A DNA stretch of 64,000 nucleotides from the NCBI GenBank assembly GCA_009914755.4, contig CP068257.2, positions 32,544,001 to 32,608,000 on the forward strand, written 5' to 3'. Origin of the DNA: the human T2T-CHM13v2.0 reference genome, Homo sapiens. The position numbers were made by a program, and so were the translations under genes. Positions 6,435 to 62,530 of this stretch are shown here, piece after piece (the first letter of the stretch is position 1; each line of letters begins with the position of its first letter). Below the pieces are notes generated by a model that was not told the origin of the DNA, made no database searches, and saw only the letters and a program-made list of their open reading frames with translations.

Positions 6435-7425
6435 TGTAACACAATTCTTGTGTTTCATTCTCTTTCTCTGGTGGCTGGATTTTGGGAATTTCACCAGATT
6501 ATGCCCAAGTGGGATTCTCTTTTTTGCTTTTCAAATTATTATTATTATACTTGCTTGGTACTTATAGTTTACATTCTGGTCCCCAAATTGGTTTTTATTC
6601 AGTTAAGGAGCATTTTCTTCTATTTGTTTGTTAAGTTTGTTTCTTCTTATCTTTCCCTGCCTTTTTTTCAGGAATGCCTGATATTCAATACTCAATAGTC
6701 AATATTCTCACAGTAGCTGATATTCTCGAAGCTGTATTCCTGTCTCTTATATTTTTATTTATGATTTTCACTTCACTGAATTTTTGCTCCATGTTCTGAG
6801 ACAGTTTCTCTTTGATCATTCAGATCAGATTGTTTATGGGTACCATCAGGAGATGGGTTAAGGCTGAAGGATGGATGGAACTCTGCATTTTTCATGCTCA
6901 TTGTTCAGGGATGGTTTACATCTGGATGGCAACAGGATCCCAAATCCCTTGTTGGGGATGCTACTTTGGTAAGGGTGCAGCTTCATACTCTGAGTCTGAC
7001 CCCAGATGGCATTTCCAATCTGATGGATCCCAGGATGAATTTAGCTTCTAGAGGCAGTAGCAGTACGGACGGTTTTGAAGTTGAGTTTATCCTTTGACCC
7101 TCTTGGTTATTTGTTGGACTCAGTTCTCTCTGCTGCTTAAAGGACCCCCATTTGCTCATCACCCTGCAGCCTGTTCTGGTTATTGTCACTGTTTGTCTCT
7201 GGGTCAACTTCCTCACAAGCCTGTGAGTTCCATCCACCTTTGCACCTGTTTTAGTCCACTCAGGCTGCCATAACAGGATACCACACACAGACTGGGGGGC
7301 TTAAACAACAGACATTTATTTTCTCACAGTCCTGGGCACTGACAGTCCAGATCAAGGTGTTGGCAGGTTTGGTTTCTCCTGAGGCCTCTCTCCCTGGCTT
7401 GCAGATGGCTGCTTTCTTATTTATT

Positions 7426-11867: not shown

Positions 11868-14477
11868 TTTCTCAAATTTGGAGAAAAACAGAAACTTACA
11901 GAGTCAAGAATCCCAGGAAATCTCAAATAGAATAAACCCAAAGAAATCCATGCCCAAACACATTCTTATTAACTGCTGCAAACTAAAGAAAACATATTTC
12001 CAGAAGCCAGAGAAAAACAGCACATTACTTATAGGGCAACATAATTCAAATAGCAACAGATTTTACAGAAGGAAATAGAACATTTTTTAAGTGCTAGAAG
12101 AAAAGAACTGTCAAACTACAATTCTATATTCAGTAAAAATATCCTTCAGGAATGAAGATAAAATAAAGACATTCCCAGGTGAAGAAAAATGAAGACTTCG
12201 TTGTCACCACACTATTGTTACAGGAAGTTCTTCAGGCAGATGGGAAATGACACCAGAAGAAGATATGAAGAGCAACAAAAATGACAGATAACTGGGCAAA
12301 CATAATAGACTGTTCTTCTTCTCTTGAGTTCTTTAAAATATATTTGATGGTAGAAAGCAAAAATTATAACATCGTCTAGTGGGGTTTTCAATGTATGTTG
12401 ATATAACAAATAAGACAACCACAACATAAAGGAGGATGGGTAAAGAAACCCATATATGGTGGTAATATATCACTTGAAGTGGTAAAATATACACTGACTG
12501 TAAAAAGTTAAGAATATATATTTTAATCCCTAGAGCAACTACTTAGAAATTACACAAAGGGATAGTCAACAAAAATGCAATAGGTAAAATAGATAACTAA
12601 CAAATGTTTAACCAAAAAGAAAGCAAACAAAGGGAAAACATAGAAACTGAAAATACAGAGACAAACAGTAAACAAACAATAAAATGATAGGCTTAAATAA
12701 AAACATCAGTAATTACATTAAATGTAAATGGATCAAACATACTAATTAAAAGATAGATTTTTAGAATGGATTTCAAAAAATGACTCAATTATATACTGTC
12801 TATAAGTATATAATTAATACAAGTGTTTCAGTTGTACTCACTTCAAGTATAATGACATAAGTGGGCTAAAAGTAAAGCAATATATATTCAAAAGATGTAT
12901 ATTATTAATGAGAATGAAGGTAGAGTGTCTATAGTAATATCAGACAAAGTGGACTTCAGAGCAAAGAAAATTACCAGGGATAAAAAGGGGCAATACCTAA
13001 TACATTTCATCAAGAGGACACAACAATCCTAAATCTGTATGTATCAAACAGCAAAGCTTGAAGGTACATGAAGGAAAAACTCACAGAACTGAGATAAGAA
13101 ATACACAAATTCATAATTATAGTTGGAAACTTCAACATTCCTCTCTCAGTGATCAATGGAACTTAGTAAACAGAAAGTCAGCAAGTGTATAGTATAGAAA
13201 ATGGAACTAAATGATAAACAATTGTTTCTAACTGACATAGAATACTCCACTCAGTAACAGCAGAATACACATTTTTCTCAATTTCACATGGAACTTTCAC
13301 CAAGATAGACCATATCTGGGGATATAAAACAAATTTGTCACACATTTAAAGAATCAAAATCATACAAAGTATGAAAAACAGAATGATAAGAAAATTTACA
13401 AACCCTTAGAAATTAAACAACACACTTGTACATAATCTGTAGGTCAAAGAGGAAGTCTCAGGGAAGTTAGAAAATATTTTGAACTGAATGAATATAAAAA
13501 TATATCAAAATTTGTGGGATGCAGTTAAAGCAGTGGTTAGATGGAAATTTCATCATTACGATGAATTTGTATTAGAAAAGAGAAGAGTATCAAACCAGTA
13601 ATCTAAGCTGCTTCCACAAGAAATTAGAAAAAGAAGAGCAAAATAAACTCAAAATAAGCAAAGGAAGGAAGTAATAAAAATAAGTACATAAATTTAAAAA
13701 ATGAAAACAATTTCAAAAACAATACAGAAAAATAATGAGGAGTTCAATAAACCTCTGGTGAGACTGGCAGAGGGAAAGATAGAACATGAATTACTGATAT
13801 CAGGAATGAAAAAAGGGTTATCACTACACACCCTGCTCATAAATTTGACCATTTAGATAAAACGGATGAATTCTGCAAAAGACACAAATTACCAAAATTC
13901 ACCCAAGATGACATGTAGATAACTTGAATAGCACTATTAGTATTTTAAAAATTGAGCTTGTATTTTAAAACCTTCTATAAAAGGATTCTTCAGGCCAAGA
14001 TTCTAGCACACACCATATAGCATATGCTACCAAATATTTAAACAAGAAATATGATAAATTCTACCAAATATTTTCTAGACATAAAATGAACTGTACACAA
14101 TCTCTTCCAGAAAATAGAAGAGGAGGGAGCACTTCTCAACTCATTTTATAAGGCCAACATTACCCTGGTACTGGAACCAGACAGATGGTACAAAAAGTAC
14201 AAAACACTATCCCTCATGAACATATATGCAAAAATTCTCAACAAAATATTAGCAAATATCCATTAATACATAAGTATACAAAGAGATAGTCAATAATATT
14301 GACTATTAGGGAAATGCCAGCTAAAACTCTGATGAGATATAACCTATGGAGTGAGACACACCTATTGAATGGCAAAAATAAAAAATACTGACAATACTAA
14401 GTGCTCACAATCATGCAAAGCAACTGGATCTCTCATACACTGCCAATGGGAATGCAAAATTGCACAGCTACTCTAGG

Positions 14478-14670
14478 ATCGTCCTGCTTCAGCCTTCTGA
14501 GTAGCTAGGACTACAGGTGGGCACCACCATGCTTGGCTAATTTTTAGTATTTTTTGGAGAGACAGGGTCCAGGTTGCCTGGGCTGGTCTTGAACTCCTGG
14601 CCTCAAGCTGTCCTCCTGCCTCAGTCTTCCAAAGTGCTGGGATTACAGGTGTGAGCTATTGTGGCTGGCC
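14478..14670 (-). mobile_element. Partial Alu (left-monomer region), reverse orientation, inside the L1
   Basis: 'cctgcttcagccttctgagtagctaggactacaggtgggcaccaccatgcttggctaatttttagtattttttggagagacagggtccaggttgcctgggctggtcttgaactcctggcctcaagc...gattacaggtgtgagctattgtggctggcc'. Confidence 0.85.
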
Positions 14671-17600
14671 CTACTTTGCAGTTTCTTATAAAGCTACACA
14701 CACAATTGACATATGACTCAGCAATCCCAAGTGAACTGAAAACTTGTATTCATGCAAAGACCTATGCATGAATGTTTATAGCAGCTGTATTCATTATCAC
14801 TAATAAGAGAAAACAACCCAATGTCTTTCAGTGGGTCAATGGGTAAATAAACTGTGGTGCGTTTCTACAATGGAATACTACTCAATTTAGCAATAAAAAG
14901 GAATGAACTATTGACACACCCAACAACTTGGATGAATCTCAAAGACATTATGCTGAGTAAAAGGAGCCAATCTCAAAAGTTCTACATACTGAATGATATA
15001 CTTTACTCTCAAAAAGGTGAAACACGTGACAGAGAAGAAATCAATGATTTCTAGGAGTGAGAGTTTAGTGAAGACAATGCTGTAATTTCTTCCCATCTAA
15101 ATTCCTTAGACCTCTGCGTTCTAATTATGAACCACTTGGAGGGAGGGTCTATGTGTCCCAAGTAAAAAGCCTGCTCTATGCTATATGCCTTGTAGGAATT
15201 GTATCTTTTTTGTTCATTCTTCTATGTCCCATGCCTAGCAGAGTAAACTGGCATAGATTGGGCACTCAGTTATTCGGTGAACAAAATAAATGAATGAACA
15301 AACTATGAAATGGTTTCAACATCCAACAATGCATTGAGAGCCTCTAAAAACTTTAAGAAAAATGGACACATTTTGTTTAACCGAACACGTGATCATTGTT
15401 GATAATTGTGGGCTGCACTCTCTCTAATGACTCTCCTAACTGTACGCTTCTGTTTGGGCTACTGACCAGGTTTTGTCTTGTGTGAGTCTACCTGCACCAT
15501 TTCTGAGCATTTCTCCTGCTTCTGTCCTGTAGAAGCAAAACAATTAGATACACGAATCCCTTCTCCAGAATTATGCAGCTACTGTCAACCAAAAATGGTG
15601 GATAACTGCCAATGACGTACATGTTGGAATTAGTGTTTGAGATTTATCAGACACTAACATATGACAGGACTTGGGCGGTGCTGAGATAATAATGAGGCCT
15701 TGCAAATGGGCATCACTCAGCATTGCAGGGAGTCCAGGGTGAGGGGCAGGACTGGACTAGCTCAACAGAGTACTTGGCATGAGGGGGCAACATGGGAAAT
15801 GTATAGGGACTCGAAAACTATAGTTGGTATTAGAGCCAGAGGCCCTTTGTCTCATCCCTCACCAGGAGTAGGGGCCCTTAGAGTACTGTCACCAGAAGGT
15901 TCTGGGAAAGTTGTAGAGACCGAATGAGTTGCTACACTACTGACCCTGCCATGTGCCAGCAATCTCCTTGATGGTCTCTGGGCAGTCTGTTTCACAGACC
16001 TGAAAAAAAGATTGAGAAAGCCTATGATATCTTATTTCATCAAGTCCGGTCTACAATGGCTTGATAGTAAGACCAGCCATTATTTTATATACCAATAGGA
16101 GAGGAAAAACACTGCCAACACACTGTGACAGATGCCTTTAATGACAGTCCTGAATGACATATGAATCAATGACATCAGATTCCTTTTAAGTTAATCTTCA
16201 TCTCTTCTAGAGATTTGGCAATGAAACAAGTAACTCGGCAATAGAAAGTAACACAGCTTGTCCGACTGGTGGGTATCTTCCTTTGCGAGGTTTCTGGTGC
16301 ACTTGATTGTTTCTTTGCAAGAAAATATGGACTCCTGATCATTCTTTCTGTGATAAATGTCGTTCACTAATACCACCTTTGCATCCTACTGCTTGGTTTC
16401 TGTACCTTTCTGACTACAAAATAGCTTGTTATTTCAGTGCTGAATCGTAGTGAAATTTCTTTGGGGAGATTCCTACACAGTAGTTAAACTCTGAGGTTAA
16501 GCTAACAAATGCACAGATCTCAATCAAAGTGATAACAATGTGAACAGCTACAGCTGGGTGGATGCACATGGCCGATGGCTTTTGAAAGATACTCCTGATT
16601 AAGATGTATCTGGATCTCAGCAATGTTAGCCTGTGAAAAACTGTGCCTCTTAAAATCTGTGGAATACAGTAATTCTGTCCAATTCAGTAATTTGGGAGGG
16701 AGAGTTCTTCTGCACTTATGACATGTTTCGTGAACATCCTTTGTCTGCTGGGGAATGTTCTAGGGCTTCAGTGGGAAACAGGCTGACTCCCCTGCCCACA
16801 TGGAGCTCACACTGAGTAAGGAGAACAGACAATAAGGGAATAAACAGAACAATGTTCATGTTATTTTAAGTGCAAGGAAGGAAATAAACAGGAGGCTGAG
16901 ATGGAGCCTCACAGTGGGACGGGTACAGGATGTACATGAGCATTTGTGATGAGCCTTCTGATTTCCAACTAAGTCAACACTTGGATTTTTGTCTCTAAGA
17001 GTCACTGGCAGCCTGCAGGGCGATCACCTGTCCCTAGGTTTGCCCAGAACTGAGGGGTTTCACGGGATATGAGCCTTGAACTCCTATAATGGGCAGACCC
17101 AAGCATACTAGTACAGTTCGTCCCCCTATGGAGATTCTAACTCAAGTTTCCTTGTAGTTTAATATTTTTATTACTATTTCCATGTCTAATGAAGTTTGAT
17201 ACTTAACCATCCACTGTGGCTTTTATTATCTTTCACTCCCATCTCTCTTATTTTCATAAAAAGAGATTAATTCTATAGTACAACTAAAGTCTTATAATTC
17301 TTAAATGCAGTCACTCAACACCACCAGTTAAACACCTACTTAAAGTCCTTCGGGGCCTCAATGATAGGTCAGGGTATCTCTCAGGGGTAAGAAATGTCTA
17401 TCGACAGCTAGAAGATCAGGTAGTGGCACAACCAAGCGTCCACCAAAGCCTCCAGCTGGGAGAAGGTGGGTGGTTGCTAAGCAGGGATGAGGGCAGGGCG
17501 AGCTGCTTTGTTTTTCTAATTTTATTTTGTTTTGGATGAACAATTCCAACCAAAGGCTTTGAAGAAGAGCAATTTTCTTTGCCTTTGAAATGAGTTAAAG

Positions 17601-18029
17601 GCAAAACAACTCCATCCTTTCATGTTAGGAATCATTTTGGTAAAGTAGTGCGGCTTTCTGTTTTTTTTTTTAACTAAAAGACAAGCTGAACTCTGGATTG
17701 CAAATGCTTTCATGGCTATTAGAAGTATAGTTTGTTTGTTTTTTCTCTTTAAAACAATGAAATGCAAATTCTTGGCTTTCTCTTCAAGCAAGGAGCGGCG
17801 AGGGGAAGCCACTCTGGAGGCTGGATGCAGATGTGTTGTTGTCAGTGACACTACAATACTTACTAGTTTTTGCAAAGTCCCAGTGAACTTCATGTTCGTT
17901 CCCTGCCTTTTTAGTCTCAAGGTTGATGTGTAACAATGCCTGTGCCCACTGTAATATTCCAAAACTACCATGTCCTTTCCATTCTTTCCCCCGACCCCAT
18001 TGTGTTTCATTTTCTTTTTCTTTTTTTAA

Positions 18030-18190
18030 AATTTAATTTAACTGAATTTTAAGTACAGGGCTTGCAGATTTGTTACATAGGTAAATGTGTGTCATGGTGG
18101 TTTATTGCACCTATCAACCCATCACCTAAGTATTAAGCCCCACATGCATTAGCTATTTATCCTAATGCTCTCCCTCCCCCCACCCCGCTG
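18030..18190 (-). mobile_element. Short L1 3'-terminal fragment (L1PA/L1PB-like), reverse orientation, possibly with TSD
   Basis: 'ttttaagtacagggcttgcagatttgttacataggtaaatgtgtgtcatggtggtttattgcacctatcaacccatcacctaagtattaagccc...cctaatgctctccctccc' is the reverse complement of the L1 3' UTR end. It is flanked by similar 25-mers: 'cccccgaccccattgtgtttcattttc' at 17988 and 'ccccaccccgctgtgtttcattttc' at 18177. Confidence 0.7.
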
Positions 18191-18910
18191 TGTTTCATTT
18201 TCCTCTCATATCTCGTGACCACATAATTCCTTCTTTAATGACAAATTGTATTGAATGAGGTGGCCAGTCTTAGAAGTGCTGTAATCTGAAAGAAAAAAAT
18301 GAAACTTTCCACTTCATCACTCTGGTATATTATTATTTTTAAAAAGATGCAAGTTGTCATATGAAAATGGAGGCATTAATTCCTTAACCTATTCCAAAAC
18401 TTTAGCTCATATTTGCCAAGAAAACAGAATGCGAATGGGAAGCCGTGTTTCTGCTTGAGGCAGTAGGAAGCAGGAGACCAAAAAGTCGTCTTAATGTTAA
18501 GCAAAACTTTGAATCAGCATTTAAATTAGATATGCTTTAACGGCTAATGTTATTTGAAAGCTGAATAGCCAATGTCAAAAATAGATTTCCCTTTCTTTCC
18601 AAAGTGCAGACGGGGTCCAGAAAGGGGCAAAAATAACCACATGCCTTTCTTGGACTCCTGACTCTTACCACCCAAAGGGTTTTCTTGTGTAGCAACCAAC
18701 AATTCCTTGGATGGAAACACTGGATAGGCTAGTCATTATTTTGAGATTGAAGGGACTGCAGATTCTTGGCAGACCTCTGTTGTTTTTCTAGAGTTGTAGG
18801 CAAGTAGTTGGACAAAAAGCAAGAAGCTGATCGATGTTGCTGGCTTTGGATTCTTTGTGAACAAATGAGACAAGGTGAGTAGCTGCCCTGCTCAACTCCC
18901 TCTTCGTTTT

Positions 18911-18940
18911 GGTGTGGGGCGGGGGTGGGGGTGGGGAGGG
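18911..18940 (+). other. G-rich tract with five G-runs (potential G-quadruplex)
   Basis: 'ggtgtggggcgggggtgggggtggggaggg'. It lies immediately downstream of a consensus 5' splice-donor-like site 'caag|gtgagtagc' at 18871–18883. Confidence 0.6.
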
Positions 18941-21900
18941 AAAGGTTCTGATGACTGCAATCCTGGTGTCGGATCTTGGTCTGTTGGAAAACAACGGGCT
19001 CGCCGGCCCCTGTAGGAAGACCTAGGCAATGTCTGCATGCTGCCTGTGCAGCCCATGGAGGGGTTAGAAATAGTAGGATTGCTTGTAGAGAGAGAACAAT
19101 CACTCAATTGTCAGATTTTTTTTTTTCACTTTTCATCCACACGCTGGGTGGCTTTGTAGCACAGTCGGAGATACTGTGTTGAGGAGCCTTTGCTCATGGC
19201 AATGTTTCCTCTGTTCACTTTCTGCTGCTTCTGCATTGGAAAATTCCGTCCTTTAACACTGGGATTATATGTCACCGTTGCTGAAATCATAGACAGAGTC
19301 CACTTAATTTGGTGCGAGCATGAGAAATAGCCAGAGAATGGGAGAAGCATAGCATTCCCTTGTATAAAGAGAGGATTGAATAAGGTCAGTGAACCAGAGA
19401 CAGCAGGTCACAAACCCTCAGAGGGTCATGAAAATGTTCCCTGGTTTCCTGCCTTTGGGAGCAAAACGGATGCCTGTTTAAATTTTTTAAAAAATTATTG
19501 AAGATTAGCCATGATACTTGTTTGAGCTGGGTGAGATATTTGAGGGCTCATTATACTAGTTTCTGTACTTTTGCACATTTTTGAAAATTTCAAATGATAA
19601 AACATTTTTTACGAAATATTTAAATACCTCCCTGCTTCATCTCAGAACGATTCCAGAGCCCCTGAGTGGGTCCCATGTACGCATGCGTGGCAGTAGGGGC
19701 TGCTCAACTGAGCATGCTCGTGATTTGGCCTCAGTCAATTTCACTGTGTGCTGAGCCCCCAACGATGCTAACCCCTGTGCGGTTTCAAATGGCCTTTATT
19801 CTTAGCCATATGTTCTTTGGCCCATATCCTAAATGGATCATTTGTTAAAGGCTAGAAACATTAGCAACACAGATGTTGAAATTCATGTTAATAATTCAGT
19901 AAATTGCCTCATGATAATCTTCACTTTATCTGAAGATGGCCTTTGTCTCGTCAAAGTCTGCCCCTGGACCTCAGAAACCCAGTGTTACAGAAAGAAAAGA
20001 CAGGGACAGTTATGTCTAATTTTGGTTTTCATTTATAGAGAACAAATGGTTGTAAAGAAGTGATTACAAATAGCAGCTAGCTGATATTTTAAGCACAAAA
20101 TATAAGAATTTCAGACATGAGGTCATGAAAGCAATTTTTGATGCCCCAATTCCTGGTTAATTTCAATTTTTATTTTAATCTGAGCACCCAACAGCTGACA
20201 CAAAATAACTCTTTTATTGACTTCCTCCTTGTATCTGGTGGCCCTGAAATGGTTATCATAAAATTTATTGTGTAGTCACTGTTTCCTAGCTCTTGTGGAC
20301 ACAGAAATGGTAGAAGTTTCTAGAAATGAGGCATGTAGGTACATTGTAAGGTTTATGGGTTTTAGCCACACACTCTTGAAACTTGGTGTTAATCTTCACA
20401 TTTGTTTAAAATTTTAAATATATTGATATTAAAGATTGTAGCTAACATGAAATTTATGTTGACAAAATAGAAAATATTTTGACTATCAGTTTCTACTTTT
20501 GCATACACACTATAGTAGATATCTTCTGTGTGTATCTCTCACCTTCTGACCCATCTTCCACACCAGCCATTGCTGGAGCAGCCAGCTTTGCGCAGGTGTA
20601 ACCAGAAGGTGCCTTGTTTCAGCTGCACTGCGTCTCTCCATTTCTGCCCTGGGCCTCTCTGACACAGTGTCCTGGTATTGAGGCTTGTGCAACCTGGAAG
20701 TGTAAGGGAGTCAACATTCTATGAGGAAATTCTTGGCCAAAAGGGGGTGGGAGTCTATAAATTAGTACTCCCTTTTTTCTTCCCCTAGGCTGCAAATTCA
20801 GAGGATCCTCCCAGAAGATAAGATGGAGCAGGTCACCACCTTCTTCCCTGCTTCACACCCTCAGGCCCCGACTCTTGTCTGCTGAGATCACTCTCCAAAC
20901 CAATCTTCCCTTACAAAGCCCTTGTTGCAGGCTATGCTTTCTGAGGGGAACCCAGGCCAAGACACTAAAATGACACACCAACATGAAGACATGAACACAA
21001 TTGCAAAGGGATTGGTTGGATTGCATATCTCTGTGAATGGGACTCAAGAGAAGTTTGGGAAATGCTGGACCAGATGACCCTTGCAATCATGGTGCACAGA
21101 ATTAAAACCGTCAAGTTCCCCATCCATCTCTGAGATGGATGAGAATCTGAGTCTTCCACAAGATGCCCAAGACTTGTTAAACCCGTGGAATGTCTTTGGG
21201 TATGTGTGACATCAACAAGAAGCAGCAGACAAAACAAAATATTTTCACAAACATTCAGAAATCCCTAAATCTTGTGAGTTGTCGTATCATTTGTAGATAT
21301 AATTATAAAATGGCACATGATGCTGACCTATTCCAAGGCAATTGTTCATCTCATGGTAGGGTGTAATCTCTGCCTGCAGATTAAGGCAGAAGAGACCAAG
21401 GAGGGCTGTTTACTCCTTCATGATCCATCCCAGGGGAGGGTGGGTTTTGGACCAGTTAGGTTATGTGGCTGGCTGCTGAGGATTCTGAACATCTAGTTAC
21501 CTCCCTGTACCTCTGTCCCATATACTCTAGGCCAGTGGCTCTTCCCTGGATTGGGCCATCTTTTTCTGAAGGCAAATTTTCCACTAGGAGGAAGGTTAGA
21601 AATGCCAGTTCTTGAGTTGCACCCCAGATCTTTGGCAGTCTGTTGCGATAGATCTTCCAGGCGACTCTGATGCTGGCTGAAGTTTGAGAACCATTGCCCT
21701 TGGCCTGTTCCTGCTCATCCTGGCTTGCAGGCTTTGGAGGCCTTCGCTGTTGATTGATTTACACTCCTCTCCACAGAATGGGCTCAGGAAACAAAAGATT
21801 ACTTGATTAGCTGGGAGGTGAGAGAAAAGGGGCTGGAACTGTGTAGGCAGCCACGCAGCTTACAAATAGATTATGTTCTGGACTTTGGAAGTCAGCTGTT

Positions 21901-22899
21901 TGGAATAGAAGCTGTTTTCCTAGGAATGGTAGATAGCTTTTTATGCCAGCACATAAAGGCATATTTAATTCCAAACTTGGCTGAAATACTGCTGCGTCAC
22001 AATGAAAATGAGCAGATCCCAGTGCTCCTGGAGTATTAGTACCTAATCAAAGCAGAACAGAACAAGAAATGAAACACGGAGATGGTATTTTATGTATGTT
22101 AATATTGCTGATCAAAGAAAAAGGTTGATTTGGAGACGAATTAAGAGGTAAATTGGGATATGTCAAGATTCATAAGGAGTTTCTGGCCTTTCTCTAGAAT
22201 ATGATGATACTCATTCATTTAGGCAGACTTTCCTTAACTGTGGTTCTGGATTGTTACCTTTCTTTTTTCTGAAGGCAAATTTCCCACTAGGAGGGAGGTA
22301 AAGAATTCTGAGACCAACTGGCATGGGTTGAAAAGGAGAACAGAAAGAGTAATGGAATCAGAGAGAATGCAGGTGTATTTATTAATTAATACGAGCCTCA
22401 ACGGAGACAAAACTAACATGAGTTGTGAGCAATGAGAGGTGGATGGGCATAGACCGAGGTCAGGATTCTCCTCTGTACTTGGCAAGACAGGAAAGACAGC
22501 AGACCTATGTGGAGCACGTGAGCTGGGAGCTGCTGTTCTGGAAACCTTCCCTCCCACTGTATTTGCCTGCCCTTGTCCCTTACACAGTTCCATTTCATGT
22601 CACCCGACTTCTTTCCTTTCCCTGGTTACTGATAGGGCAAAAGAAGATGAGCTGGACCAACTCCCTTTTTCTTCCTAGAGATTTGAACTAAGAAACAACC
22701 AGATACATTTCAGTCCGTGATGGGAAGAGGTTTGCGGCTGGCTGTGAGCACTTCACACATTCACAAATCACGCACTTCTAGTTGGCTTTCTTGTGATGGC
22801 GAAAATACTTTCTTTTTGGTTTCATGATGCATTTATTAACCATTCTATTTTTGTATCATACAAATGATCAGAGCTGACAGTTGAATGGCTGGGTTGGGA

Positions 22900-23880
22900 G
22901 AAGTGTGGTAGCCCTAATGGAATTAATTAATTGAATAATATTGCCTGACAAATGGCTCCATTATACCAAAGAGGGCTTGAGACTTAATTACTGATGTCAT
23001 TTATCTCTCTATTTGCACCCCAATAATAAGTGACTCATTTCTCATTAATATTGGGTCATCTTCCAAAAGGAAGAAAAGAGGCCAAAATATCAGGCGGGTG
23101 GGTGGGGGGTGAAGCAATGTCTTTGTTCCCTATCTCATTATTTTGATAAATCATAACAGACTCCCGTTAATTAGGTGGGCAGGCTTAACTGGCTGACTCC
23201 TGTCCAACAATTACCTCAGAAAGGAGCACCACTGGGAACACGTCCTTCCCTTGGGACGACATGAAAGGAAGTCTCTAACAAAAAAGGGGATCGTTCCCTT
23301 GGCCACGCTGGGGGCATCACAGTTGTCAAGACACATTTCTAGACGTAAGGGCTGGAGCTGTCTCGGGGACATCGCCTGTGCATGACGGTGATGTCTGTGG
23401 GCCTGATGCTGCCTTCCTAATCCAGGGTTGAGCTAATGGTTCTCAGTGCCTTTGAGTCCCCCTGGGAAATGAGAACCTAATTAAGCAGGGGAACAGGTGT
23501 AAAGAGAACCTGATTTGATCTGGCCACATTAATTGCTGAGATTGGGCTTGCATTTAGCTGGAAACAGTGAATTAACTACAGCCGGAATACAGCTAATCCC
23601 TTGGTTTCGCTGCGACTGTGTATAAAACACACTGGACCTGCTGGGGAACACAAACAAAGAGGGATTTGCAGTGAAGGTAAAACCGCATCCTTGCATGGGA
23701 AGGGCTGAGAAACGAGCTTAGCCACAGAGGGTGGCCATGTGGCCCAGACTGGGCGGCTCATTTTCCCTACAAAATTACCAATAGCACTCTCTTTTATTCT
23801 CAAAAAATGTTCCAGTTTGGGCAATAAATTAAATGGTTACTTTATTTCAATGAGAATTTTAAGTTGGTTTAAAATATTTT
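22900..23880. promoter_or_regulatory. Candidate conserved non-coding element or enhancer cluster, TAAT-rich and retaining CpGs
   Basis: Dense homeodomain-type motifs: 'aattaattaattgaataatattg', 'gacttaattactgatgtcatttatc', 'ctcattaatattgggtcat', 'cccgttaattaggtggg', 'cctaattaagcagg', 'cacattaattgctgag', 'gaattaactacagccgg' and 'gcaataaattaaatgg'. There are also more than 15 retained CpGs ('gacgacatg', 'gatcgttcc', 'agacgtaag', 'tttcgctgcgactg' and others) in a region with no Alu. Confidence 0.45.
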
Positions 23881-24772
23881 TTTCTTTACCGGAGGAGTGG
23901 TATTATAGGTTGAGGAGTTACCGGTTGAATTTTGTCCCCCTCAACAAAGATGTTGAAGTCCTGACCCCCAGTATCTGTGAACGTGACCTTATTTGGAATT
24001 GGGGTCTTTGCAGATGATCCAGTTAAGGTGAGGCCATTAAGGGTGAGCCCTCATCCAGGATGACTGGTGGCTTTTAAAAGGGGGGAATTTTGGACACAGT
24101 CACAGGGAGGGCACCATATGAAGGTGAAGGCAGAGTCTGCGGCAATGTTTCTATAAGCCAAGGAACCTGAGGATTGCCAGTGACCCCCAGAAGTTAAGGG
24201 AGGGGCCTGGAACAGATTCTCCCCCAGAGCCCTCAGAACAAACCCTGCCAACACCTTGATCTCAGACTTCTGGCCTCCAGAACTGTTCAGCAATAAACGT
24301 CTGTTGTTTAAGCCACCCTGCCTTTGGCACTTTGTCACGGCGGCCCCAGCAGACTAACTCACGTGGGCACTAGTCTCGAAGCATCTGATAAGGCTCTAAT
24401 GACTCATGGTTTGTACGGTTCACAGAACTGAGCCGTCTTGATGGCGAAGGCTGGTCGCAGGGTTAGGGAGCAGAGCTGATTAGAGGACCAGTACCAATTT
24501 CCCACCTCCTCGGTGCCAAGCTCTGGGAAGAGGGTGACAGAGATGGCCCTGGTTCCTGGCCTCAAGGGGCCAGCAGTCCGGTGGGCAGGCAGCCTGTGCA
24601 GGTGACCTTGTACTTCATTAGCTAAACACGAGTATGTATCTATGTACACACACCTGGAAGGGAGGGAAGCTCAATATAGGTGGGGGGCAGGCCTCCCAAG
24701 CTGGGCTGAAAAGCATCAGCCTTCCCAGGATGGGACATCTCAGCTGAGACCTGAGAAGAAAGGGCTACCTGG

Positions 24773-25086
24773 ATTTTATTTTATTTTGTTTTCTTATTTT
24801 TGAGACAGGATCTCATTCTGTTGCCCAGAGGCTAGAGTGCAATGATGCAGTCACGACTCACTGTAGCCTTGACCTCCGTAGGCTCAAGCGATCCTCCTGT
24901 CTCAGCCTCCCAGGTAGCTGGAACCACAGGCACACACCACTGTGCCCAGCTAATTTTTGTATTTTTTGTAGAGACGGGGTTTCGCCATGTTGCCCAGGCT
25001 GGTCTCAAACTCCTGGGCTCAAGGGATCCACCCACCTCAGCCTCCCAAAAGTGCTGAGATTATAGGTGCAAGGCACAACGCTGGGC
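24773..25086 (-). mobile_element. Alu SINE, reverse orientation, with a 15-bp TSD
   Basis: Alu reverse-complement body '...gagacaggatctcattctgttgcccagaggctagagtgcaatg...'. The direct repeat 'gctacctggatttta' occurs on both flanks, at 24767 and 25087. Confidence 0.9.
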
Positions 25087-59135: not shown

Positions 59136-60289
59136 ATATTGTTAAGTGAAACTTTTTCTAAAATACTGTGGTAATAGAGTTTGCCAGTGGGCAGCCCAGA
59201 GATAGAACTTCCTGGGTGGTGCAGGGACTTCAGCCAAGTGCTATGTGAGACTTGTCCCCTGCACCTTTCATTGAGCTCCTCAGGTACTGACTCCCCACTG
59301 GATGCTTCTTGCCTCTCACCATAGAAAAATCACGATCAGCAAAGTCAGGCCTGTTTCTAACATGGGAAGTCTTGCCAGGCACCAGGTAGACTTACATTGG
59401 AGGACAAGGTCAGAAACAAACCTTTATAGATTCGAATGTCTTCCCGCCCCCACCCCAGCCCACTTGGGGCCACCCAAAAAATGATGCCCTGGAGCCTTGG
59501 CATGCCATTAAAAGTGAAGAAATGCTTAATCAAATCACGCCACTTGAAGCGAGTTGAGTTGGAATGAAAAAATTGTGCAGTGCTGCCCGCAGTGGAAATT
59601 TACCAGGCCAAAGTGGACACCAAATACTCCCAGGTTGTTTTGAAATAGATACGGTCGCGTTCTGTAAAGTTCTGAGATCCCTTTCCAAATATTTGAAAAT
59701 CTTTCCATTAACTAGGATTGCTTTAGAAGAACACACACACACACACACACACCTCCCCAACCCCAAAGGCTTATGCTATGTGCATGGAAGAAACAGAAAA
59801 CTCTAGACACCCCAAATATCTCTTGAAATTGGCAGAGATCCATGAATCCCCTCTGTTGTCTGTTGAGACAGCTCTCATTTTTTTAAAGTTTATTTGCGTA
59901 TTCCCCCTCAAAAATGTCATGACTAACTTTCCATTCATTATCAAAATATTCTTTTGCCACTAATTTCCCTTCTTGGTTAAAATAAACAAAACAGAGTGAA
60001 TGCTGTTGGCATTGCATCTAGGATGCACTCAGCTGTAAACAAGAGAACATTTTCTTAACGGATCTTGAAAAGTCCTCCCGTGAGAATTTCCTGTGCAGTC
60101 TGTCTCTGTTTCTTAACTCCATTTGGCGTGGAGGGCAGAGACTCAGCGGCGGCAGGAAAGGGGAGGCTGCCTCGGGCTTGCCAGGGTCCAACGTCTCATC
60201 CCCCGCGGCCAGGCCCCTGCAAGGTACCTGTGGAGTCTTCACATGACGTGGACGCCGGGGCTGGCTACCGTGTGACCTCGGGTGGCCAT

Positions 60290-60365
60290 TGAACATCTTT
60301 GGACCTCAGTTTTCTCAGCCATAAAATGAAGCCATCGGATCTGATGATCTCTAAGCTCCATCCTG
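60290..60365. repeat. MIR-like SINE remnant next to a small GC/CpG-rich patch (60130–60290)
   Basis: 'gacctcagttttctcagccataaaatgaag' resembles the MIR 'gcctcagtttcctcatctgtaaaatgggg' hallmark. Upstream is 'gcggcggcaggaaaggggaggctgcctcgggcttgccagggtccaacgtctcatcccccgcggccaggcc...gacgtggacgccggggctggctaccgtgtgacctcgggtgg', with about 14 CpGs. Confidence 0.4.
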
Positions 60366-62530
60366 TACCAAAACTCTAGGACTCAAATCTAGGAATGTCT
60401 AATTAAAAAAAAAACGTGGAGAAGATACTTGAAAACAAACCTTAAGTTTTAGGATTTGTGAAGATGCGGTGAAGAGCTCCGTGGGTGAGAGAAACATTTC
60501 GTTTTTCAAAGGTCGAACACAAGAAAAGTAGGTCAGAAAACCAGCTTGTCCAAAGCTCCCTTTCCAGTAACACAGACGAGAGCTTGTGAACCCCCCAGAA
60601 TATACCTTGTAAGTGGAGGAGCAGACAGGGGGTGCAAAGCAGACCTTCTCCACTTCCTGGAGCTGGGGGAGAAGAGTTCCTAGCTCTTTAGCTCCTTCTA
60701 GTCCACGGCCTAATTTGTGTGGCTGCAGTGAGGACTCTGGGATGTGGGGCAGGCCAGCGGTTCTTTTTTCAGAAGTTCCCCAGGCCTCCTAGAGAAATGG
60801 GGAGAGGTCTGAGGGTGGGGGTGAGGATGACTCTCAGTGCAAAGACAGGGCCAAAGGTGTCCGTCTCGGGAGAAACTCACCTGAAAGTGACAAGACGCTG
60901 AGTCCTCCCTTGATTGATACGGCCAATGAAAGAGGGGGCACTACCCAGTGTTTCTCAGGGAGTCTCAGGGGTGGTCTCCTGAGGACACATCCTCCATGGA
61001 AGTATGTGAAGCAGGAAGAAGAAATGCTAGTGACAAAGGTGTGACCCTTCAAGGTTGGCCACAAAGAGACATCATCATCTCTGCTGGGGAGACTCTTCTG
61101 TCTGGAATAGTCTTGGGAGGCAGCAGCACCCTGTGGTCGAACTTTCTGGAGACCCCTGATGTCACGTAAAGGCCCAAAGTGGGATGGGGAGGGCAGCCAC
61201 AGCAGTGCGTCCCAACTGCACGGGACCTGGTCAGCCCTGGGCATTTGGAAATGGGAAGGGACCTGAGGGGATGGAGGCATGGATTTCTATATTAGTACCA
61301 GGTGGAGCCTGGGAGTCAATAACACTGGGAGCTCTCGTAGTCACCCCGTAAATCAGATTGGCTTAGGGAGCTGAAGATGACATTGGCAACACTCTTAACA
61401 GCCGCTCCTCAAACATGGCTCCCAGTTCAGGTCAGGAGACCAAGGCTTGGCGGCTGTGCTAGTTTCAAGGGAAGTGAGGAAAACAAGAATGAGACAGTGC
61501 TTTCTTCCATACATCTAAATTCATTTCACTTAAAAGACTGTTCTCTATTTTGAGAGTATGTCTTCCCCAATTTTGGCGTTAAAAGTATCCTTTCATGAAA
61601 TAATGGCAACACATGATAGGTTTAGAAAAAAGGTTTTTATTTGACAAAAGAGGAAGTTGGTACATTTTGCTGAGCCCTGTGGCCGATTCTTGTAGTTTTC
61701 TCTCCATATTTGCCTTCCCCTTTTTTCATTCTAAGAGGAGTTTAAAGGGGCATGTGACCATCCAGAATAAAGCTTACAGTTCCCAGGTGTCCCTTGGAGC
61801 TCATTGGCCCAAGTTCTGGCCAATGAGATGTTGGCAGAAGTGATGTATACAACTTCTGGGGTGTGTCCTCAAAGGGCAAGGGTCTGTCTGTTCCCTGCCA
61901 CTTTTCCTCTTCCCAAAGGCTGTAGTACAGACATGGTGGTGAGTTATCGTGACTGTGCAGATGAATGCAATATCCCAGGGGCGGCAGAGCAGCAAGACAT
62001 GGGGAGCCTAGAGTCTACTATCAGCCCAGGATGCTTATGGAATGGGAGAGGGAAATAGCCATTGATATTTCATGTCTTTGGAGAGAAAAATGAGTCTGCA
62101 CTTAGATGATATTTGCAGAAATGGCAGTAGTTGAGATCAACCAGGAATAGAGAGTAGAGGGCGAAAAGAACAGTGCCTAGCATGGAGCCTCAAGAGCTCC
62201 ACCATATAATATTTACGGCATGGAGGAAGAACCCATAAAGAGACCGAGGAGTGAAGCTAGAGAAATAGGAAGAGAAAACGGTGTGAAGGAGCCAAGGGGA
62301 GAAAGTATTTGTGAAATAAGGGAGTGGTCAGCCTGTTTCTGTGACACTGAGAGGTCCAGTAAGATGAGGCCCCACATGTAGCCATTCTGTTTAAAACGGA
62401 GATGATTGGAGACCTTATTAAGAATTGTTTCCTTAAAGTGGTGTAGTGAAAGTCTGTGGGAATGGGGTCTGGGGTCAGTGGCAGATGAGGGAGACACAAG
62501 GAGTGTGGCCACAAAGGCAAGAGTAAGAGA

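What the first reader, a model, noticed from the sequence alone, without database searches (positions are those of the whole stretch)
15100..24770. 9.7-kb block with no Alu, retained CpGs and dense TAAT motifs, resembling a conserved developmental enhancer landscape
About 30 Alus are scattered through the rest of the window, roughly one every 1.5–2 kb. Between the end of the old L1 at about 15.1 kb and the Alu at 24.77 kb there is none. The only young insertion is a 160-bp L1 3' scrap at 18.03 kb. The same block contains many isolated CpGs in AT-rich context. Examples are 'tgacgtacatg' and 'aaccgaacacgtgatc' around 15.4–15.6 kb, 'actcggcaat', 'gtccgactgg' and 'tgcgagg' at 16.2–16.3 kb, and 'acgcatgcgtg' at 19.68 kb. 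CpGs normally decay unless they are constrained or hypomethylated. The block also has clusters of homeodomain-type motifs. Depletion of transposable elements together with CpG retention is characteristic of ultraconserved enhancer arrays in gene deserts near developmental transcription factors.
Basis: inference. Interest (0 to 1): 0.65.

Follow-up and report, generated by a model that had tools for sequence, protein, structure and literature searches.

The report
Alu-free stretch with one homeodomain-site cluster

Summary
The Alu-free gap is real: 14,669 to 24,797, 10.1 kb, the longest in the window. The window holds about 26 Alus, not about 30. Random placement of that many gives a gap this long about 20% of the time.

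CpG retention is not distinctive. Observed/expected CpG is 0.25 in the block and 0.20-0.22 in non-Alu flanks. Tiles of 500 bp range from 0.00 to 0.41, no higher than several ordinary tiles elsewhere.

TAAT motifs are not dense across the block. From 15,100 to 22,880 there are 78 against 72 expected. The excess lies entirely in 22,880-23,620: 16 distinct sites against 6.0 expected, and TAATTA 4 against 0.2. After correction for composition this is the top tile of 171, but in raw counts it only ties with AT-rich tiles that I read as L1.

No protein-coding signal was found anywhere in the window.

Orthologous DNA from other species could not be obtained with these tools, so the central claim of deep conservation is untested.

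The best reading is single-copy non-coding DNA, poor in young transposons, that contains one candidate homeodomain-responsive regulatory module. This is a known kind of feature and of low interest.

The parts
14482..14669 (-). Alu fragment forming the left edge of the Alu-free gap
   Evidence: blastn with an Alu consensus; Rfam SRP and mir-1268 hits
12856..15075 (+). Remnant of an old L1 whose 3' end abuts the block
   Evidence: Read by eye: an ORF2-like peptide at 12,856-13,189 and the typical L1M 3' end '...aatggaatactactca...' at 14.87-15.07 kb. Pfam did not confirm it.
15100..17986 (.). Single-copy non-coding DNA with background CpG and TAAT levels
   Evidence: No repeat match; CpG o/e 0.13-0.34; no Pfam domain
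17987..18202 (-). L1 3'-end fragment (about 18,015-18,174, with a poly-A read as a T run) between a 28-nt target-site duplication (17,987-18,014 and 18,175-18,202)
   Evidence: Direct repeat D5, 89% identity. L1 identity is from reading the sequence.
18792..18874 (+). Possible 83-nt non-coding exon, written ...ttgtttttctag|AGTTGTAGG...GAGACAAG|gtgagt, with stops in all three frames
   Evidence: Splice-site consensus read from the sequence. Inference only; there are no RNA data.
21561..21603 (+). First copy of a 43-nt direct repeat; the second copy is at 22,264-22,306 (88-94% identity)
   Evidence: Similarity does not extend beyond about 45 nt.
21657..21696 (+). Fragment of an ancient interspersed repeat ('...gattctgatgc...aagtttgagaacca...')
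22880..23620 (.). Cluster of homeodomain-type sites: 16 distinct TAAT-core sites, including TAATTA x4. Also TAATCC at 23,418 and 23,594, and a PBX-HOX-like TGATTTAT on the minus strand at 23,146-23,153. This is the candidate cis-regulatory module.
   Evidence: 24 cores against 6.7 expected (z = 7) and TAATTA 4 against 0.2, reached in 0 of 2000 dinucleotide shuffles. 16 distinct sites against 6.0 +/- 2.1; top of 171 tiles. In raw counts it only ties with AT-rich tiles that I read as L1.
23622..23678 (+). TATA-like box TATAAAA (23,622-23,628) followed 49 nt later by a splice-donor-like AAG|GTAAAA (GT at 23,677-23,678). Possible promoter and short first exon of a non-coding transcript.
   Evidence: Read from the sequence. 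Inference only.
23900..24370 (+).
   Evidence: blastn with an MSTA consensus from memory: 24,229-24,357, 74% identity, E = 3e-19. It matches another copy at 7,286-7,389. The 5' extent is by eye.
24797..25087 (-). Full-length Alu forming the right edge of the gap

Best explanation
The interval is not one functional block. It is poor in young transposons but not free of them: it holds an L1 3' fragment, a MaLR LTR and at least one ancient repeat fragment.

Its one feature that stands out statistically is a 0.74-kb homotypic cluster of homeodomain-type sites at 22,880-23,620. This is most likely a cis-regulatory module. Several homeodomain proteins would occupy the closely spaced TAATTA/TAATTG sites (Q50 class), the two TAATCC sites (K50 class) and one PBX-HOX-like composite site. 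Their combined occupancy would switch on a promoter in particular tissues. That promoter could be a distant one reached by looping. It could also be the TATA-like element immediately downstream at 23,622, which is followed by a splice donor.

Shown: the motif clustering, the absence of coding potential, and the background CpG and TAAT levels elsewhere in the block. Inferred: protein binding, enhancer or promoter activity, the target gene, and any evolutionary constraint.
For: The Alu gap is real but expected by chance in about 20% of windows with this Alu load.

CpG o/e is 0.25 against 0.20-0.22 in the flanks, and no tile exceeds 0.41.

The TAAT excess is confined to 22,880-23,620. There, 24 cores occur against 6.7 expected and 16 distinct sites against 6.0 +/- 2.1, reached in 0 of 2000 local shuffles. 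It is the top of 171 tiles, with z = 4.5 against a tile distribution of mean 0.15 and SD 1.2. The rest of the block is at expectation.

The other apparent TAAT cluster, at 31-32 kb, is an (ATT)n microsatellite.

No coding potential was found. Chimeric ORF queries returned no hits among 5.8 billion proteins. None of the 723 ORFs of at least 40 aa has a credible Pfam domain. No Rfam family other than Alu-derived hits was found.
Against: The motif cluster is notable only after correcting for local base composition. In raw counts it ties with AT-rich tiles that I read as L1 (15-19 sites). A homogeneous third-order Markov model of the window gives a mean maximum of 14.9 sites per 750 bp. My window-level significance estimate is therefore only about 0.03, and by inference clusters like this should also arise by chance at many places in a genome.

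There are no conservation, chromatin or expression data.

The TATA box and donor are consensus matches read by eye.

Confidence: 0.5

Rival explanations
1. The whole 9.7-kb interval is a conserved array of developmental enhancers in the regulatory domain of a developmental transcription-factor gene. Selection against insertions keeps transposons out, and constraint or hypomethylation keeps its CpGs.
For: It is the longest Alu-free gap in the window. No MIR was found in it, against 6 outside. It shows almost no similarity to the rest of the window. One composition-corrected homeodomain-site cluster is present. CpG o/e is slightly higher than in the flanks, 0.25 against 0.20-0.22. Transposon-free regions are enriched near developmental and homeobox genes (PMC2241635).
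Against: The gap is within chance (P about 0.2). The block does contain an L1 fragment with a target-site duplication, a MaLR LTR and an old repeat fragment. CpG is at background, and 20.0-21.5 kb is CpG-depleted as neutral DNA is. TAAT density outside the 0.74-kb module is at expectation. No transcription-factor gene lies in the 64-kb window. The window carries about 10% Alu, and from my own knowledge dense conserved-element deserts are usually Alu-poor. Human transposon-free regions of at least 5 kb number 9,203, by my arithmetic roughly one per five windows of this size, so one here is no surprise.
Confidence: 0.2
2. Nothing functional is here. The interval is neutrally evolving unique DNA, and the TAAT cluster is a chance fluctuation or the remnant of an unrecognised ancient repeat.
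For: Raw site counts are matched by AT-rich tiles that I read as L1. The Markov scan statistic gives a mean maximum of 14.9 against 16 observed. CpG is at background. There are no RNA-family or protein signals.
Against: In a context of 54% A+T, 16 sites against 6 expected was never reached in 2000 shuffles, and this is the top tile of 171. The exact palindrome TAATTA occurs 4 times in 560 bp against 0.2 expected. The module matches nothing else in the window and has above-median CpG, 0.35-0.41.
Confidence: 0.3
3. The interval belongs to a spliced non-coding transcription unit on the + strand. The TAAT cluster would be the proximal promoter of a TATA-driven transcript starting near 23,650, and 18,792-18,874 would be an exon of the same or another long non-coding RNA. 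This can be true together with the best explanation.
For: A good acceptor and donor flank an 83-nt segment with stops in all frames. TATAAAA at 23,622 is followed by AAG|GTAAAA at 23,677. There are no coding hits. A CpG island lies 16 kb downstream.
Against: Splice-site and TATA consensus matches are frequent by chance. No Rfam long-non-coding-RNA family matches. There are no RNA data.
Confidence: 0.15

Closest known systems
Transposon-free regions of vertebrate genomes (Simons et al.; PMC2241635)
   Same: It is a multi-kilobase stretch with very few transposon insertions. That class is statistically associated with developmental and homeobox genes.
   Different: This block is interrupted by an L1 3' fragment at 18.0 kb and ends in a MaLR LTR at 23.9 kb. 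The longest possibly clean run is therefore about 5.7 kb (18.2-23.9 kb), not at least 10 kb, and it still holds an old repeat fragment at 21.66 kb. Regions of at least 5 kb number 9,203 in human, so they are common.
Clusters of conserved non-coding elements around developmental genes (genomic regulatory blocks, ultraconserved elements)
   Same: It is non-coding, poor in transposons, and contains a patch rich in homeodomain sites.
   Different: Conservation, the defining property, could not be measured. Only one 0.74-kb patch stands out. The surrounding window is Alu-rich (about 10%) and has no developmental gene within 64 kb.
Homotypic clusters of transcription-factor binding sites in enhancers and promoters
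   Same: There are 16 TAAT-core sites in 741 bp of otherwise GC-normal sequence. They include palindromic TAATTA sites and a PBX-HOX-like composite.
   Different: There is no evidence of binding or activity, and the significance depends on the null model.

Membership tests
Transposon-free region, at least 10 kb | At least 10 kb without any annotated transposon-derived sequence | tested here: not met
   An L1 3' fragment with a target-site duplication lies at 17,987-18,202. A MaLR LTR lies at about 23,900-24,370. An old repeat fragment lies at 21,657-21,696.
Transposon-free region, at least 5 kb | At least 5 kb without any annotated transposon-derived sequence (RepeatMasker) | tested here: inconclusive
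No RepeatMasker or Dfam library was available.
Ultraconserved or conserved non-coding element | High sequence identity between human and distant vertebrates over at least 100-200 bp | not testable with these tools
   No vertebrate genomes are in the collections. Scans of metagenome and prokaryotic-genome contigs found nothing. ORF translations found no relatives.
Developmental enhancer | Open chromatin, H3K27ac or p300 in embryonic tissue, and reporter activity | not testable with these tools
   No epigenomic or reporter data were accessible. No paper in the library prints 17-18-mers of the module.
Developmental enhancer | Location in the regulatory domain of a developmental transcription-factor gene | tested here: inconclusive
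   No coding exon or Pfam domain was found in the 64-kb window. The window's genomic location is unknown.
Homotypic homeodomain-site cluster | Significant local excess of TAAT-core sites over the composition-matched expectation | tested here: met
   Met only for 22,880-23,620: 16 sites against 6.0 +/- 2.1, reached in 0 of 2000 shuffles, top tile of 171. Not met for 15,100-22,880: 78 against 72.
CpG island or hypomethylated region | At least 200 bp with GC of at least 50% and CpG o/e of at least 0.6 | tested here: not met
   The highest 500-bp tile in the block has o/e 0.41 at GC 0.42-0.48. The real island of the window is at 39.9-41.2 kb (o/e 0.59-0.76).

The most novel reading that the evidence does not exclude
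The 22,880-23,620 module, perhaps together with further elements at 17.5-19.8 kb, is a deeply conserved homeodomain-driven enhancer set. It would control a developmental gene lying outside this window, and selection on it would explain why young transposons are scarce here.
Probability: 0.2. Interest if true: 0.3.

Novelty: already known. Interest (0 to 1): 0.15.

Why it matters
If the module is a real homeodomain-responsive enhancer, it would be one more entry in a very large, already catalogued class. Public resources (conservation tracks, ENCODE candidate elements, VISTA) would settle that for a human locus in minutes.

The practical lesson concerns the scan. An Alu-free gap of 10 kb in a window with about 26 Alus is not evidence of constraint. 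Isolated CpGs at o/e of about 0.25 are not either. TAAT counts must be corrected for local base composition and for microsatellites.

Tried and rejected
1. ORTHOLOGUES THROUGH SPURIOUS ORFS. I joined stop-to-stop ORF translations into long chimeric queries and searched them against the 5.8-billion-protein set. They covered 12 ORFs of the block, the + strand of 24.4-44 kb and the - strand of the same interval. There were no hits. So there is no coding exon among them and no route to other species' DNA. One that carried an Alu peptide as a positive control timed out.

2. HOST DNA IN PUBLIC CONTIG COLLECTIONS. I tried an exact 22-mer of the module in metagenome contigs and back-translated patterns in metagenome contigs and genome contigs. 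Nothing was found.

3. LITERATURE SEARCH for six 17-18-mers of the module. No paper holds any of them.

4. RFAM at gathering and permissive thresholds. Only Alu-derived hits appeared, plus noise such as snR49 at E = 0.36 inside the block.

I replaced it with per-ORF scans through dummy alignments. No domains were found.

6. PFAM CONFIRMATION OF THE FLANKING L1 was negative, so L1 identity rests on reading the sequence.

7. THE SECOND TAAT CLUSTER at 31-32 kb was rejected as an (ATT)n microsatellite.

8. TERMINAL INVERTED REPEATS or tandem structure in the module that would suggest a DNA transposon or satellite. None was found.

9. I could not identify the genomic locus or the neighbouring genes.
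Full report
WHAT THE WINDOW IS

The sequence is primate, human-like genomic DNA. It carries Alus, remnants that I read as L1, MaLR LTRs, MIRs and microsatellites. Mean GC is about 43%, and the block at 15.1-24.8 kb has the same GC. Low GC therefore does not explain the lack of Alus there.

CHECKING THE OBSERVATION: ALUS

An independent Rfam scan, in which Alus show up as SRP, mir-1268 and mir-3135 matches, gives the same map and adds an Alu-related SRP-model hit at 37,578-37,717. That makes about 26 Alus, one per 2.5 kb, rather than about 30.

Both methods agree that none lies between 14,669 and 24,797. The gap is 10.1 kb, and the next largest gaps are 5.8, 5.3 and 4.4 kb. I placed 25 insertion points uniformly in the 57.6 kb of non-Alu sequence. 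A largest gap of at least 10.1 kb appeared in 19.9% of 100,000 trials. The gap is real, but on its own it is not evidence of anything.

CHECKING THE OBSERVATION: OTHER TRANSPOSONS

It is an L1 3' end on the minus strand at about 18,015-18,174, flanked by a 28-nt direct repeat (17,987-18,014 and 18,175-18,202, 89% identity) that is its target-site duplication.

The last part of the block is a MaLR LTR. blastn places it at 24,229-24,357, and by eye it starts near 23,900. It also matches another copy at 7.3 kb. A 40-nt piece of an ancient repeat sits at 21,657-21,696. No MIR was detected in the block, against six outside it. Otherwise the block matches nothing else in the window.

The interval 15.1-23.9 kb is therefore poor in transposons but not free of them. 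My repeat library consisted of a few consensus sequences recalled from memory, so old repeats may be under-called.

For scale, human transposon-free regions of at least 5 kb number 9,203 and cover 65 Mb. Those of at least 10 kb number 856 (PMC2241635). By my arithmetic a region of at least 5 kb is expected in roughly one 64-kb window in five.

CHECKING THE OBSERVATION: CpG

The quoted CpG-containing strings are present. The block has 113 CpGs, giving o/e 0.25. Non-Alu sequence outside it has o/e 0.224, or 0.203 when the CpG island at 40 kb is left out.

In 500-bp tiles the block ranges from 0.00 to 0.41. The window median is 0.215 and the 90th percentile is 0.37. The block's best tiles (18.9-19.4, 22.9-23.4 and 23.5-24.0 kb) tie with several ordinary tiles elsewhere. 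The interval 20.0-21.5 kb is strongly CpG-depleted at 0-0.13. From general knowledge, bulk human DNA has o/e of about 0.2-0.25. CpG retention here is marginal at best.

CHECKING THE OBSERVATION: TAAT MOTIFS

Over the whole block there are 11.3 TAAT/ATTA cores per kb, against 9.8 per kb outside it. With dinucleotide-preserving shuffles, 15,100-22,880 is at expectation, 78 against 72.

The interval 22,880-23,620 has 24 cores against 6.7 +/- 2.5 expected. TAATT has 13 against 2.0 and TAATTA has 4 against 0.2. None of these was reached in 2000 shuffles. After merging overlapping cores there are 16 distinct sites against 6.0 +/- 2.1 expected. Among 171 tiles of the window, this one has the highest composition-corrected z, 4.5, against a tile distribution with mean 0.15 and SD 1.2.

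Two cautions apply. In raw counts the module only ties with AT-rich tiles that I read as L1, which have 15-19 sites. A homogeneous third-order Markov model of the window gives a mean maximum of 14.9 sites per 750 bp. I therefore put the window-level significance at about 0.03 rather than at the z of 7 that local shuffling suggests.

The only other apparent cluster, at 31-32 kb, is an (ATT)n microsatellite.

WHAT IS IN THE MODULE

Reading, the module contains:
- TAATTAATTAATTG at 22,922
- TTAATTAC at 22,985
- ATTAATAT at 23,044
- GTTAATTAGG at 23,168
- CAATTAC at 23,210
- CTAATCC at 23,418 and 23,594, the site type preferred by K50 homeodomains such as OTX, CRX and PITX
- CTAATTAAG at 23,478
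- CATTAATTGC at 23,528
- TGATTTAT on the minus strand at 23,146-23,153, which matches the PBX-HOX composite consensus

Motif meanings come from established knowledge of homeodomain specificity. Binding was not tested. The module is 54% A+T, so it is not simply AT-rich DNA. It has no terminal inverted repeats or tandem structure.

Immediately downstream lie TATAAAA at 23,622-23,628 and AAG|GTAAAA with its GT at 23,677. A separate 83-nt segment at 18,792-18,874 has good acceptor and donor sites and stops in all frames. These suggest non-coding transcription on the + strand, but they are only consensus matches.

CODING POTENTIAL AND GENE CONTEXT

Chimeric queries built from stop-to-stop ORFs found nothing among 5.8 billion proteins. 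They covered 12 ORFs from the block and ORFs of at least 55-60 aa from both strands of 24.4-44 kb.

All 723 non-Alu ORFs of at least 40 aa in the window were scanned one by one against Pfam. That gave only three marginal hits, with E between 0.004 and 0.009, which is the noise expected from 723 tests. Rfam finds no non-coding RNA family apart from Alu-derived matches.

The window therefore appears wholly non-coding, with no homeobox or other transcription-factor exon inside it. Very short exons could have been missed.

CONSERVATION, THE DECISIVE TEST, COULD NOT BE DONE

None of the available collections holds vertebrate genomes. An exact 22-mer from the module and back-translated patterns from 23.2-23.8 kb found no matching contig in the metagenome or prokaryotic-genome collections. 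The ORF route gave no relatives. No paper in the library prints 17-18-mers of the module. I could not identify the locus.

MOST LIKELY EXPLANATION

The 9.7-kb interval is not a unit. It is single-copy non-coding DNA that is the longest inter-Alu gap of the window, by chance or through mild insertion avoidance. Embedded in it is one candidate cis-regulatory module at 22,880-23,620.

In that module, multiple homeodomain proteins, possibly with PBX-type cofactors, would bind cooperatively. They would activate either a distant promoter or the adjacent TATA-like element.

Shown: the motif clustering, the absence of coding or known RNA signal, and the background CpG and TAAT levels elsewhere. Inferred: binding, activity, target and constraint. 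My confidence in this combined reading is about 0.5.

RIVALS

It is weakened by the chance-level gap, background CpG, the CpG-depleted 20-21.5 kb stretch, transposon insertions inside the block, and the lack of a developmental gene in the window.
- Purely neutral DNA with a chance motif cluster, about 0.3.
- A non-coding transcription unit whose promoter is the module, about 0.15. This is compatible with the best explanation, so the four confidence figures are not meant to sum to 1.

COMPARISON WITH KNOWN CLASSES

The block fails the definition of a transposon-free region of at least 10 kb. The test for a region of at least 5 kb is inconclusive. It is not a CpG island. Membership of the conserved-non-coding-element and developmental-enhancer classes could not be tested. 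Only the criterion for a homotypic binding-site cluster is met, and only for the 0.74-kb module.

VERDICT

The kind of feature is well known, and for a human locus it is already covered by public annotation. Interest is low, 0.15.

Noticed in passing
window 39,900-41,200: This is the only real CpG island of the window (o/e 0.59-0.76, GC 0.55-0.62). It contains a (GT)n(GA)n microsatellite at about 40,478-40,545 and a CCAAT box. No ORF there has protein or Pfam matches, so it may be the promoter of a non-coding transcript. It lies 16 kb downstream of the TAAT module.
   Followed up: partly
window 60,100-60,600: A second CpG-enriched patch (19 CpGs, o/e 0.61, GC 0.50) lies in otherwise ordinary sequence. 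No coding signal was found there.
   Followed up: partly
window 21,561-21,603 and 22,264-22,306: A 43-nt direct repeat (88-94% identical) has copies 703 bp apart inside the block. The similarity does not extend beyond about 45 nt. It is possibly two fragments of one ancient repeat family. Unexplained.
   Followed up: partly
window 19,680-19,689: There is a perfect 10-bp palindrome, ACGCATGCGT, which resembles the NRF1 core. It sits in a locally CpG-richer stretch (19.5-20.0 kb, o/e 0.38).
   Followed up: no
window 17,500-17,800: Two octamer-like ATGCAAAT motifs, one of them next to a SOX-like AACAATG, lie in a T-rich stretch. This could be a second regulatory patch, but I made no statistical test.
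   Followed up: no
window 31,318-31,365: An (ATT)n microsatellite mimics a cluster of homeodomain motifs in simple TAAT counts.
   Followed up: yes
window 14,700-43,600 versus the flanks: Alu density is uneven across the window. There are about 7 Alus in the central 29 kb, against 8 in the first 14.7 kb and 11 in the last 20 kb.
   Followed up: partly
window 28,190-28,260: A (CA)n / CG-containing simple repeat gives a weak mir-297 match in Rfam (E = 0.006, far below the gathering score). This is a low-complexity artefact.
   Followed up: no
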